In this document: in pieces, positions 35,918 to 37,790 of the stretch
How the letters are laid out: every line of letters begins with the position of its first letter
Numbering within the stretch: the first letter of the stretch is position 1
DNA from: Myxococcales bacterium
GTDB taxonomy: Bacteria > Myxococcota_A > Polyangia > Palsa-1104 > JAEUJZ01
Length of the DNA stretch: 64,000 nucleotides
Direction of reading: 5' to 3'
NCBI GenBank assembly: GCA_016794465.1
Contig: JAEUKA010000024.1
Location: 7,511 to 71,510 of the forward strand
Notes under the pieces: model-generated
Told to the model about the DNA's origin: nothing
What the model saw: the letters and a program-made list of their open reading frames with translations, nothing else
Databases searched by the model: none
Program-made: the position numbers and the translations under genes

Positions 35918-37790
35918 CAAATCTAATCATACATTTCTGTCGATAAACCGTAGTTTATACCCAGGTAAGCAGCTGGTAATTATTGACATTTATTAATATT
36001 TATACGTGCTTTTAATTACATTTTAACAAATCAAGCCAGTGGCAAACTTGACAGGGGATGGAAGTTGTTCTTGGTGCTCGATGCAGTTCGACCGCTCGCG
36101 AGCAGTGTGCGCGCTGTGCTCGCGCAGCCGATGAGTGGGCACGTGGGTGCGGCTCCGTCGCAGAGCTTGCAGGCACAGGGATTGCATTTTGAGCGGCTAC
36201 GGACGTTCAAACACTGCGCGTACCGACTGTAAACCGCAAGCAAGGAACTCACGATGGCCAAGAATGTTGAACACGACTTTTCGCCTGGTTTTGATCTCGC
36301 GAAGGAGATCAATGACGAAGCTGGAATCAAGCCTACGGAATATGCCCCGTATCGGTTTCCCGTAGAATTCCAGATTAAAATGTTCATCATATGCACTGAG
36401 AAGGGCGACCTCGATAAGGCATTGCACAACGATCCGGTCTTACTACAAGAGATCAGGGATGTCGTTAGTGCAGAAGATGGCGCGGTTGCGGCGAAGCGAA
36501 AGGCGCTCGTTAAGGCCTTTGGCGGCGCACTTGAAGATATCAACACAATCGCCAAGAAAGGTCAGCTGCAAGAGGCCAAAGAGCTCTTTGAGAACGCATT
36601 CTCTGAGAAGACTTTCAAGCTCCATGCCGATCCAATCTGCGAGCTGATGGTTGCCGGCGCGGAGAAGCGCTGGAAGGCCATTGTGAAGGCCAAATCCGGC
36701 TACAGTCGCTATCAGTTTCAGACAGCGGCAAAGTTCGTCATCCTCACCGGTGGCATCGCAGTTACCGTCGGTGTGAATGTCGCGGTCATTGCGTCATCGG
36801 GCTTTCACTTCGGTGCCGGCATCGCACTGTCTGCCTATGGATTGGCGCGGACCTCAGCTGCACTGCTCAAGCTTACTATACAGTGCTTTCAAGGTGTCGA
36901 TTCTGCGATTGAGGATGCCTTGCGTGTCTTGGCAAAGGTCGAAAAGAAGAAGAAGCGATCGGACTGGATCTCCACCCCTGAGCTATTGGCCGAGACGATA
37001 TTCAACGCGATCGGCAATGAGCTATCTGGTCTTGGCGAGTTCTTCGATACGGTCAAAAAGGCCCAACATAAGGCCGATCTAGCGCGCAACAAGCTATATG
37101 GCACAAAGGTCGCACTGCATCGGCTATCAGAAAAGCTCAACGCGCTCATGAAGGAACAAGACGCAATCGCGACCAAGCTGGCGATCCTCCAGGCTGCTGG
37201 CGCACTGGACAGCATTCCCAAGAAATATCGGTTTAACCCAGCAAAGATGGTAGAGACACAAAAGAAAGTTACAAAGCTATTCAAGCAAGTCAAAGCTGCT
37301 TATAAAGCCTACGAAGAACGAGACACCAAGCTAGCGGAAGCCGAACAAGCGCTTGAAGCGCTTGCGAAGCTAAAGAGCAGCAAAGTCATCGGGGTGGTGC
37401 ATACCGGCACAGTGGTTGCGATGAAGGCACTGCTTCTTGCCGCCAGTGTCGCAACCATGGACTTTTCCTCTGTTGCGGACGCGGTTTCAGTCGGTTTCGA
37501 TCTCGGCTGTACGGTAGTCGATGCAGGCGGTGAGGTAGCTCTCTCCGCCATGGAGAAGCTCGAGATCAATCACGTCCTTGGCACCAGCGAGTTCAAGGCT
37601 TTCGCTCAGACTTCGTAGTCGCTCGCGGCGTTGGCCTGGCACGCCAGGCAGCTCGCGGCGGCATCCCACCCCTGATCTTCCATCGAAATTAGTAAGATAA
37701 AATACAATACCATCAGATCAGTTGCACTGACGGTAGCTGTGCGCTTTGCTGCGTCAGTTGGGAACAAAACACATTTTTACTGTAATCTTC
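35918..37790. mobile_element. ~1.87-kb low-GC insertion splitting the kinase within its HRD motif; AT-rich ends, carries one gene, no recombinase
   Basis: GC drops from ~66% to ~35-50%; kinase reading frame resumes exactly across the insertion (HR | DLKPDN). Confidence 0.7.
36254..37618 (+). CDS. Orphan 454-aa protein: Lys/Glu-rich coiled coils flanking a central pair of hydrophobic helices
   Basis: AAGGAA RBS; central FVILTGGIAVTVGVNVAVIASSGFHFGAGIALSAYGLA; lower-GC codon usage than neighbours. Confidence 0.6.
   Translation: MAKNVEHDFSPGFDLAKEINDEAGIKPTEYAPYRFPVEFQIKMFIICTEKGDLDKALHNDPVLLQEIRDVVSAEDGAVAAKRKALVKAFGGALEDINTIAKKGQLQEAKELFENAFSEKTFKLHADPICELMVAGAEKRWKAIVKAKSGYSRYQFQTAAKFVILTGGIAVTVGVNVAVIASSGFHFGAGIALSAYGLARTSAALLKLTIQCFQGVDSAIEDALRVLAKVEKKKKRSDWISTPELLAETIFNAIGNELSGLGEFFDTVKKAQHKADLARNKLYGTKVALHRLSEKLNALMKEQDAIATKLAILQAAGALDSIPKKYRFNPAKMVETQKKVTKLFKQVKAAYKAYEERDTKLAEAEQALEALAKLKSSKVIGVVHTGTVVAMKALLLAASVATMDFSSVADAVSVGFDLGCTVVDAGGEVALSAMEKLEINHVLGTSEFKAFAQTS

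What the first reader, a model, noticed from the sequence alone, without database searches (positions are those of the whole stretch)
36254..37618. Orphan cargo protein of the insertion: coiled-coil protein with a central hydrophobic helix pair
The 454-aa product is Lys/Glu-rich with predicted coiled coils on both sides of two adjacent hydrophobic helices (FVILTGGIAVTVGVNVAVIASSGFHFGAGIALSAYGLA). This architecture recalls pore-forming translocator or toxin proteins. It has no homology obvious by eye, its codon composition is foreign to the host, and an RBS is present.
Basis: inference. Interest (0 to 1): 0.6.

Follow-up and report, generated by a model that had tools for sequence, protein, structure and literature searches.

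The report
Single-gene minicircle splitting a kinase gene
The ORF is a real, conserved gene for an uncharacterised membrane-hairpin coiled-coil protein, and it is the only gene on a 1.9-kb DNA element that lies precisely inside a protein-kinase gene, also occurs as a free circle in metagenomes, and encodes no recombinase of its own.

Summary
Window 36254-37618(+) encodes a 454-aa protein under strong purifying selection (dN/dS 0.08). It has long helices on both sides of a Gly-rich hydrophobic segment (residues 161-198), an RBS, and a near-consensus sigma-54 promoter 83 nt upstream.

It is the sole gene of a 1876-bp element (35915-37790). The element cuts a minus-strand Ser/Thr kinase gene between the R and D codons of the HRD catalytic loop. 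Empty-site alleles (99.6-100% identical flanks) join precisely across a shared TC/GA dinucleotide. Three metagenome contigs with assembler circularity signatures close into a 1926-bp circle, and other contigs show the same integrated junction. There are no terminal inverted repeats, no target duplication beyond 2 nt, and no recombinase gene.

Best reading: a non-autonomous, site-specific integrative cassette moved in trans by a serine recombinase. The candidate is the recombinase at 31865-33043, at the end of a second insertion 2.8 kb away; the two target sites match 21/42, P~0.003, a post hoc comparison.

The protein belongs to an unannotated family (143 representative clusters) of mostly single-copy chromosomal genes. 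No homology or fold match to pore-forming toxins, translocators or dynamins survived controls. Its function stays unknown; the most likely role is a sigma-54-induced inner-membrane hairpin scaffold.

The parts
35915..37790 (.). The mobile element (1876 bp). The boundaries are ambiguous by the shared dinucleotide TC at 35913-35914 and 37789-37790.
   Evidence: Empty-site loci L033, L034 and L035 join window 37789 to 35914 with a 2-nt overlap, and their flanks are 99.6-100% identical. Circular contigs join the right end to the left end...gcTTC|tgtc....
35915..36050 (+). AT-rich left end (GC about 34%). It evolves near neutrally: about 83% identity to the circle lineage over the first 100 nt.
   Evidence: Its function (attP arm, bending site or origin) was not determined.
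36090..36135 (+). GC-rich palindromes (GCTCGCGAGC; TGCGCG-N8-CGCGCA) upstream of the promoter. This is a possible enhancer-binding-protein site.
   Evidence: Read by eye. The region is 90-95% conserved between lineages, against about 81% expected at neutral sites. This is an inference and was not tested.
36171..36186 (+). Sigma-54 type promoter AGGCACAGGGATTGCA, with GG at 36172-73 and GC at 36184-85.
   Evidence: It matches TGGCAC-N5-TTGCW at 10 of 11 positions and is identical in the circle copies. Equivalent motifs (>= 9/11) lie at -63 to -140 in five independent lineages, against a background of 0.055 per 300 nt.
36242..36246 (+). Ribosome-binding site AAGGA, 7 nt before the ATG.
36254..37618 (+). 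ORF of 454 aa, member of an unannotated protein family.
36734..36847 (+). Codons for the hydrophobic Gly-rich hairpin (residues 161-198). The core VG(V/I)NVAVIA(S/T)SGFHFGAG is essentially invariant down to 42% overall identity.
37726..37790 (+). Conserved right end (about 88% identity to the circle lineage), with a weak hairpin CTGACG(37727-32)...CGTCAG(37752-57). The 3' non-coding segment upstream of it (about 37705-37725) is replaced in the circle lineage.
37791..38225 (-). N-terminal half of the interrupted Ser/Thr kinase, ending ...GVVHR.
   Evidence: Pkinase profile positions 1-133. The junction was read.
34826..35914 (-). C-terminal half of the same kinase, starting DLKPDN..., followed by a TM segment and a PEGA-like C-terminus.
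   Evidence: Pkinase profile positions 123-259. The reconstruction is 100% identical to the intact 507-aa P0153.
31865..33043 (-). Serine recombinase (392 aa), the candidate trans-acting enzyme. It lies outside the element.
   Evidence: Resolvase plus partial Recombinase domains. Best NCBIfam hits are CcrB at 2.8e-24 and XisF at 1.6e-17, both below cutoff. PDB matches are to resolvase/invertase/integrase catalytic domains.
33081..33082 (.). Junction of a second, large insertion (window 1-33081: T6SS cluster plus the recombinase) inside an FG-GAP gene. A TC follows the breakpoint.
   Evidence: L033 and L028 have an intact 577-aa FG-GAP gene and diverge from the window exactly here. This target site matches the kinase target site at 21 of 42 positions in register, P=0.0028.

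Best explanation
Window 35915-37790 is a non-autonomous, site-specific integrative cassette. As a 1.9-kb circle, it recombines at a 2-nt crossover (TC on the + strand, GA on the kinase sense strand) with one chromosomal site: the codons of the HRD catalytic loop of a Ser/Thr kinase gene. Integration splits the kinase, and excision restores it exactly. The element carries no recombinase, so the reaction is inferred to be done in trans by a serine recombinase. The candidate in this window is the 392-aa enzyme at 31865-33043, which sits at the end of a second insertion whose own target site resembles the kinase site. The cassette's only gene is expressed from its own sigma-54 promoter and needs a host enhancer-binding protein. 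It encodes a 454-aa protein with a compact N-terminal domain and a long antiparallel helical stalk. At the tip of the stalk is an invariant Gly-rich hydrophobic hairpin. I infer that the hairpin anchors the protein in the cytoplasmic membrane, with both helical arms in the cytoplasm, where it acts as an inducible membrane-associated scaffold or remodelling protein rather than a secreted toxin. Shown: the element boundaries, the precise empty site, the circular form, the absence of a recombinase gene, purifying selection, and the recurrent sigma-54 motif. Inferred: the class and identity of the recombinase, the membrane topology, and the cellular role.
For: Kinase split: the gene is cut between ...GVVHR and DLKPDN.... 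Empty site: the intact 507-aa kinase P0153 is 100% identical to the reconstruction. Empty-site loci L033-L035 have 99.6-100% identical flanks joined with a 2-nt overlap. Circular form: L008 and L009 have exact 127-bp terminal overlaps (MEGAHIT k127), L011 has 55 bp (SPAdes), and L007 a 370-bp overlap; all close into a 1926-bp circle with one TC at the joint. Integrated form: L010, L012 and L028 show the same integrated junction. Site specificity: every integrated copy found is at this one site. Element structure: there are no terminal inverted repeats and no target duplication beyond 2 nt, and no second conserved ORF in the doubled circle. Serine-recombinase fit: a 2-nt crossover is the hallmark of serine recombinases. 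TndX always uses a central GA and prefers DNA encoding a conserved protein domain (PMC4430133). Cassettes lacking ccr are excised as circles by CcrAB in trans (PMC11470126). Target-site similarity: kinase attB versus FG-GAP attB match at 21/42, P=0.0028, and the two element/chromosome junctions match at 19/42, P~0.006. Gene reality and expression: dN/dS is 0.08, and the sigma-54 motif recurs in five lineages. Relatives in L026 and L017 lie next to sigma-54 activator genes. Protein architecture.
Against: No recombinase has been tied to the element experimentally or by co-occurrence. L028 carries the element but not the recombinase-bearing insertion at the FG-GAP site, so linkage is not obligatory. 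The att similarity statistics are post hoc and rest mostly on the chromosomal arms; the element-side arm matches at only 7/20. Dyad symmetry at the circle junction is not significant, P=0.22. The recombinase is short for a large serine recombinase, and only part of the Recombinase domain is detected. The circles could be tandem copies, or a replicating plasmid, rather than excision products. For the protein, there is no homology, fold match or conserved neighbour that indicates a function. The second hydrophobic arm (186-198) is short, so a hairpin versus a single-span topology is unresolved.
Confidence: 0.42

Rival explanations
1. The circle is an autonomously maintained mini-plasmid that uses only host replication functions, in the way ColE1-type replicons need no Rep protein, and it occasionally integrates into the kinase gene.
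For: In four assemblies from two projects the circular form, not the integrated form, was assembled. The roughly 510-nt non-coding region has an AT-rich stretch and is partly conserved.
Against: There is no Rep gene and no match to any PLSDB plasmid. There are no Rfam hits such as RNAI/RNAII-like RNAs. The best-conserved non-coding part is explained by the sigma-54 promoter region, while the AT-rich end evolves near neutrally. Element divergence (about 7%) tracks host flank divergence (about 5%) between lineages, which suggests chromosomal residence. A precise, single-site junction with a 2-nt core still needs a site-specific recombinase.
Confidence: 0.15
2. The element is a passenger-carrying derivative of a single-strand 'peel-and-paste' transposon (IS200/IS605-like), moved in trans by a TnpA. 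Such elements have no inverted repeats, make no duplication, excise precisely and form a circular junction.
For: The element has no TIRs and no TSD, shows precise excision and a circle junction, and has a subterminal hairpin near the right end.
Against: The hairpins are weak: a 4-6-bp stem at the right end that is not fully conserved, and an AT-only stem at the left. No TnpA or TnpB was seen among the large ORFs of the window that were scanned. All copies are at a single site, rather than at many sites sharing a tetra- or pentanucleotide. The dinucleotide shared by both partners fits a serine recombinase better.
Confidence: 0.07
3. One reading: the protein is a pore-forming toxin, translocator or secreted effector (alpha-PFT or T3SS-translocator-like, or a T6SS effector), or a membrane-permeabilising abortive-infection effector carried as selfish cargo.
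For: It has a hydrophobic hairpin between long helices, as in ClyA-family toxins and IpaB/YopB translocators. The hairpin region has low model confidence, as expected for a conformationally switching segment. T6SS genes lie nearby in the window and in L026. Small mobile cassettes often carry defence genes (PMC11470126).
Against: Fold matches to SmhB, AhlB and AhlC are at TM <= 0.2 and E > 0.6. AopB and IpaB sequence hits are at noise level. PADLOC hits are reproduced by reversed decoys. No chaperone, immunity or secretion partner is conserved. Family members are scattered single-copy chromosomal genes. The window's T6SS cluster belongs to a separate insertion that is absent from L028, which still has the element.
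Confidence: 0.18
4. The insertion is an RNA-guided (IS110/IS1111 bridge- or seek-RNA type) element that has lost its recombinase gene.
For: It has a long non-coding region spanning the circle junction, a dinucleotide core, no TIRs or TSD, and strict target specificity.
Against: There is no DEDD transposase domain in the ORF. Complementarity between the non-coding region and the target or donor is at chance level: 7-mer P=0.65, and no 8-mers. There is no Rfam hit, and the leader has no excess structure, z=0.42.
Confidence: 0.03

Closest known systems
Large-serine-recombinase transposons Tn5397 (TndX) and Tn4451 (TnpX)
   Same: They form a circular intermediate and have one copy of a GA dinucleotide at the joint and at the target. 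They make no target duplication and excise precisely. Tn5397 prefers a site inside DNA that encodes a conserved protein domain (PMC4430133). Here the core reads GA on the kinase sense strand, inside the HRD-loop codons.
   Different: Those elements are 6-21 kb and encode their own recombinase. This one is 1.9 kb with a single unrelated gene and no recombinase.
ccr-less SCC-like cassettes mobilised by CcrAB in trans (staphylococci)
   Same: They are recombinase-less cargo cassettes that are excised as circles by a serine recombinase encoded on a neighbouring element (PMC11470126). The window's recombinase scores best against CcrB.
   Different: SCC cassettes stack in tandem at one shared site in rlmH. 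Here the small element and the recombinase-bearing insertion occupy two separate sites 2.8 kb apart, and the host is a Myxococcota-like organism.
Gene-interrupting 'intervening' elements excised to restore a gene (skin/SpoIVCA, SPbeta/SprA, Anabaena fdxN/XisF)
   Same: The element splits a coding sequence, and excision by a serine recombinase reconstitutes the reading frame exactly (PMC5499854, listed). XisF is the second-best NCBIfam hit of the window's recombinase.
   Different: Those elements are tens of kb and carry their recombinase. Developmental timing of excision has not been shown here.
Integron gene cassettes and mobile insertion cassettes (MICs)
   Same: They are small, usually one-gene, non-autonomous units with a circular form (integron cassettes) or trans-mobilisation (MICs).
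   Different: This element has no attC-type imperfect inverted repeat and no GTT crossover, no terminal inverted repeats and no target duplication. It also carries its own promoter.
Helical stalk plus hydrophobic 'paddle' of bacterial dynamin-like proteins (BDLP1, LeoA/LeoBC); ClyA-family alpha-pore-forming toxins; T3SS translocators
   Same: They share the architecture only: long antiparallel helices with a Gly-rich hydrophobic tip that inserts into membranes (PMC4159319; model).
   Different: This family has no GTPase domain, even in its longer relatives. The LeoBC profile hits are matched by reversed decoys. No significant fold or sequence match exists to any of these proteins.

Membership tests
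Serine-recombinase-mobilised integrative element | An identical 2-nt crossover dinucleotide in the circle junction, the empty site and both integrated junctions | tested here: met
   TC is present at 35913-14 and 37789-90, and as a single copy in the circle joint and in the empty site.
Serine-recombinase-mobilised integrative element | Precise excision or an empty site, and a circular form | tested here: met
Serine-recombinase-mobilised integrative element | A recombinase gene carried by the element | tested here: not met
   The element has only one conserved ORF, and it has no recombinase domain. The element would have to be non-autonomous.
Serine-recombinase-mobilised integrative element | Recombination of attP x attB by a specific serine recombinase | not testable with these tools
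   Only indirect support exists: similarity of the two target sites, 21/42, P=0.0028.
Insertion sequence / classical transposon | Terminal inverted repeats, a target-site duplication and a transposase gene | tested here: not met
IS110/IS1111 RNA-guided elements | A DEDD recombinase, and a non-coding RNA complementary to target and donor | tested here: not met
Integron gene cassette | An attC site (imperfect inverted repeat with R/L boxes) and crossover at G|TT | tested here: not met
   The crossover is at TC, and no attC-like dyad is present at the 3' end.
Plasmid | A replication initiator or recognisable origin, and relatives among known plasmids | tested here: not met
   No Rep domain, no PLSDB match and no Rfam hit. 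Replication itself is not testable here.
T3SS translocator (IpaB/YopB/AopB type) | Sequence homology to the family, and linkage to a class II chaperone and T3SS genes | tested here: not met
   No Pfam hit. PDB profile hits to AopB (0.0066) and IpaB (0.036) lie among generic helical bundles. No T3SS genes appear in any context.
ClyA-family alpha-pore-forming toxins | Fold similarity: a helical tail bundle plus a hydrophobic head | tested here: not met
Bacterial dynamin-like proteins (LeoBC / Eleos) | A GTPase domain, and homology of the stalk/paddle region | tested here: not met
   No GTPase domain, even in the 510-680-aa relatives. LeoBC hits occurred in 7/10 real sequences against 4/10 reversed decoys at similar E-values.
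Sigma-54-dependent gene | A -24 GG / -12 GC promoter at the proper spacing upstream of the start | tested here: met
   The match is 10/11 at 36171-36186, and the motif recurs in five lineages against a background of 0.055 per 300 nt. Dependence on RpoN and an activator is not testable here.

The most novel reading that the evidence does not exclude
A recombinase-less, single-gene DNA minicircle acts as a reversible genetic switch. By integrating into and excising from the HRD catalytic-loop codons, it turns a Ser/Thr kinase off and on in a Myxococcota-like bacterium. It is driven in trans by the serine recombinase of a separate T6SS-bearing element, and it brings a sigma-54-controlled membrane protein of a wholly uncharacterised family. 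An even more radical reading is that the 454-aa protein itself supplies a new kind of maintenance or recombination function for the circle. That reading is not excluded, but it is unlikely (about 0.03), because all other family members are immobile chromosomal genes.
Probability: 0.15. Interest if true: 0.8.

Novelty: new variant of a known kind. Interest (0 to 1): 0.55.

Why it matters
If the trans-mobilisation model is right, this is a minimal hitch-hiking cassette: about 1.9 kb, one gene, its own promoter and an att site. It would exploit a serine recombinase outside the Firmicutes paradigms (SCC, Tn5397) and target DNA that encodes a universally conserved kinase motif. It offers a compact natural attP/attB pair and a candidate recombinase for testing. 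It may also be a natural on/off switch of a signalling kinase. In addition, it flags a protein family of at least 143 clusters with an invariant membrane hairpin and sigma-54 control, for which no function, structure or domain model exists.

Tried and rejected
- **Sequence libraries on the ORF and on 60 family members:** Pfam, NCBIfam, PHROGs and PDB sequences gave only coiled-coil noise.
- **N-terminal domain alone against the PDB:** nothing.
- **First structure model:** the AF2 model from 6 sequences was too weak (pLDDT 53). The 60-sequence model was usable.
- **Dynamin (LeoBC) lead:** it came from PADLOC and fitted the LeoB description. It was rejected after reversed-sequence decoys scored similarly and the longer relatives showed no GTPase domain.
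- **Conserved gene neighbours:** none across 10 contexts.
- **T6SS linkage of the gene:** rejected, because the T6SS segment is a separate insertion absent from L028.
- **Circularity of other family members' short contigs:** none were circular.
- **Second ORF in the doubled circle:** none conserved.
- **Other structural and database checks on the element:**
  - No Rfam hits.
  - No guide-RNA complementarity.
  - No leader structure.
  - No dyad symmetry at attP.
  - No sigma-70 promoter.
  - No TIRs or TSD.
  - No match in plasmid or phage collections.
  - No match in IMG/VR by protein, junction or left end.
  - No other copies of the ends in the window.
- **Group I or group II intron:** rejected by reading the boundaries. 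There is no GUGYG...AY, the upstream exon does not end in U, and the ORF is antisense to the kinase.
- **Literature search for the sample accession:** uninformative.
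Full report
**Observation**

The ORF at 36254-37618(+) exists and encodes 454 aa. AAGGA sits 7 nt before the ATG. All close homologues start MAK(N/T)VE. Six metagenome copies are 96% identical in protein. Against them, dN/dS is 0.074-0.080 in this frame. Four of the five other frames give more than 1.6, and the codon-aligned antisense frame gives 0.18. It is therefore a real gene under strong purifying selection.

The quoted hydrophobic stretch is residues 161-198. The first arm is TM-grade (Kyte-Doolittle 2.25) and the second is shorter and Gly-rich. The flanks carry +5 and +4 charge. The composition is Ala 15%, Lys 10.8%, Leu 9.7% and Glu 7.3%.

**The insertion**

A minus-strand Ser/Thr kinase gene is split. 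The piece at 37713-38225 matches Pkinase positions 1-133, and the piece at 34826-35920 matches positions 123-259. Reading the DNA shows the cut falls between ...GVVHR and DLKPDN..., inside the catalytic loop. The insert is 35915-37790 (1876 bp). TC is present at both junctions.

Joining the two halves gives a protein 100% identical to an intact 507-aa kinase in public data, P0153. Three loci that encode it (L033, L034, L035) are 99.6-100% identical to the window's flanks. They join window 37789 to 35914 with a 2-nt overlap. The insertion is thus precise and polymorphic within one species.

**Circular form**

Contigs carrying the 96% variant behave in two ways. L008 and L009 have exact 127-bp terminal overlaps (MEGAHIT k=127). 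L011 has a 55-bp overlap (SPAdes). L007 has a 370-bp overlap at 97.8%. All four place the right end directly against the left end and close into a 1926-bp circle with a single TC at the joint. L010 and L012 instead run from the right end into the same kinase codon. L028 carries the element, with its ORF 99.9% identical in DNA, at the same site.

Every integrated copy found is at this one site. There are no terminal inverted repeats and no duplication beyond the 2 nt. There is no second conserved ORF in the doubled circle. The ends occur only once in the window. The element has no match in plasmid, phage or IMG/VR collections.

**How it probably moves**

A precise reaction between a circle and one chromosomal site, sharing only a dinucleotide, is what serine recombinases do. 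On the kinase sense strand the dinucleotide is GA. The large serine recombinase TndX always uses a central GA and prefers a site inside DNA encoding a conserved protein domain (PMC4430133). Recombinase-less SCC-like cassettes are excised as circles by CcrAB in trans (PMC11470126).

The window has a serine recombinase at 31865-33043(-). It lies 38 bp from a second breakpoint at 33081|33082. Everything to the left of that breakpoint is absent from L033 and L028. This segment holds a T6SS cluster and has a GC of about 53-61% (mostly 56-59%). L033 and L028 have an intact 577-aa FG-GAP gene where the window has a 352-aa stump.

The FG-GAP target and the kinase target match at 21 of 42 positions in register around TC, against a null mean of 12.2 (P=0.0028). 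The two junctions match at 19/42, P about 0.006. These comparisons were made after seeing the data and rest mainly on the chromosomal arms, so they are a hint, not proof. L028 also shows the element without that insertion at the FG-GAP site. I therefore put the model 'trans-mobilised by a serine recombinase' at about 0.4-0.45.

The rivals are:
- A host-replicated mini-plasmid, at 0.15.
- An IS200/605-like passenger element, at 0.07.
- An RNA-guided element, at 0.03. Complementarity was at chance level, there was no Rfam hit and the leader is unstructured.

The element differs by about 7% and the kinase flank by about 5% between the window lineage and the wastewater lineage. This fits long residence at this site together with ongoing excision. 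I assumed the circular contigs come from DNA libraries and could not verify it.

**Expression**

The 339-nt 5' non-coding region is 91% identical between lineages. It rises to 90-95% in its promoter-proximal 240 nt, while dS of 0.21 predicts about 81% at neutral sites. At 36171-36186 lies AGGCACAGGGATTGCA, a 10/11 match to the sigma-54 consensus with correct GG-N10-GC spacing.

Motifs of at least 9/11 occur 63-140 nt upstream of the start in all five independent lineages of the closer subfamily, against 0.055 expected per 300 nt. In L026 the gene follows a sigma-54 activator gene by 40 nt, and in L017 it lies between two such genes. The gene is thus very probably enhancer-dependent and needs a host activator.

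**The protein**

A word-indexed search found only five clusters, named at best 'hypothetical protein [Myxococcales bacterium]'. An exhaustive profile search found 143 representative clusters, mostly 390-450 aa and matched end to end. No Pfam, NCBIfam, PHROG or PDB sequence relationship exists.

With 60 sequences, AlphaFold2 gives pLDDT 78 and pTM 0.75. The model shows:
- A confident small N-terminal domain (residues 1-115, pLDDT above 90, with the conserved motif DPLLxQ).
- A long helical hairpin (118-165 and 188-236) whose tip is the hydrophobic segment (pLDDT below 50).
- Further long helices at 267-314 and 329-372.
- A poorly modelled C-terminus.

The core VG(V/I)NVAVIA(S/T)SGFHFGAG is essentially invariant at 42% overall identity. 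Of 60 members, 53 have a TM-grade block at about 35% of their length.

A lead to bacterial dynamin-like LeoBC came from three things: 23 of 60 members hit the PADLOC model, the matches were collinear with the middle-paddle-GED region, and the Gly-rich paddle is described in PMC4159319. It did not survive a reversed-sequence decoy control: 4/10 decoys against 7/10 real sequences, at overlapping E-values. The longer relatives also lack a GTPase domain. The resemblance to dynamin paddles, alpha-pore-forming toxins and translocators is therefore architectural only.

Family members are single-copy genes in varied chromosomal settings: kinase/PEGA/sigma-54 clusters, BMC shell genes, glycosyltransferases, and near an eCIS gene. 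They have no conserved partner.

The protein has no signal peptide, basic flanks around the hairpin and sigma-54 control. I therefore favour an inducible inner-membrane hairpin protein with cytoplasmic helical arms, acting as a scaffold or remodelling factor, at about 0.45. A toxin or effector role stands at about 0.18. Both are inferences.

**Verdict**

'Cargo of an insertion' is right. 'Translocator or toxin' is untested architecture.

The more interesting object is the element itself: a 1.9-kb, one-gene, recombinase-less cassette with integrated, empty and circular states, sitting in a kinase catalytic-loop codon. It is a new variant of known non-autonomous integrative cassettes, and its cargo is an uncharacterised protein family.

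Noticed in passing
window 1-33081 (breakpoint 33081|33082); FG-GAP stump 33066-34124(-): The whole left half of the window is absent from near-identical loci L033 and L028, which carry an intact 577-aa FG-GAP gene. This half holds a T6SS cluster (TssM-like, VipB, TssK, TssF, DotU, TssG) with a GC of about 53-61% (mostly 56-59%), and it ends with a serine recombinase 38 bp from the junction. It looks like an integrated element of at least 33 kb carrying a T6SS. Its other end lies outside the window.
   Followed up: partly
window 13785-21683 (+): A 2632-aa ORF in the middle of the T6SS cluster has no Pfam hit at E <= 0.001.
   Followed up: no
window 55205-60204: tRNA-Ala (55205-55278) is followed by a tyrosine integrase (55384-56496, minus strand), an AAA_25 protein (57942-59063) and a protein with a CHC2 primase zinc finger (59056-60204). 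This is a likely third integrated element in the window.
   Followed up: no
L001 5169-5636 (-): In the Myxococcales MAG that carries a 42% homologue, a kinase ORF 2.4 kb away stops just after its catalytic loop (...IIHRDKMPSNV...stop). No C-terminal half was found within 21 kb. This is a second truncated kinase near a family member; whether that is coincidence or a relic is unknown.
   Followed up: partly
L028, right junction (equivalent to window 37791-37793): In L028 the kinase flank next to the element reads catatg instead of cctatg. That would change the HRD arginine to methionine after excision. The element's last bases are also taaGcttc, as in the circles, against taaTcttc in the window.
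   Followed up: no
window ~37705-37725 versus circle contigs L008/L009/L011: The middle of the 3' non-coding region is replaced by an unrelated GC-rich segment, 46 nt longer, in the circle lineage. The last ~65 nt are conserved.
   Followed up: partly
upstream of family genes in L013, L001/L014/L029, L017, L025: Sigma-54 type promoters recur 63-140 nt upstream of the start codon across the closer subfamily. They are absent upstream of the more distant members L016, L032 and L036-L038.
   Followed up: yes
window 48036(-), 52486(+), 3486(-), 1051(-): Other sites in the window resemble the kinase target site (24-30 of 42 in register), and none is occupied. Those at 48036 and 52486 lie in Pkinase genes, so they probably reflect the conserved HRDLKPxN-encoding DNA.
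   Followed up: no
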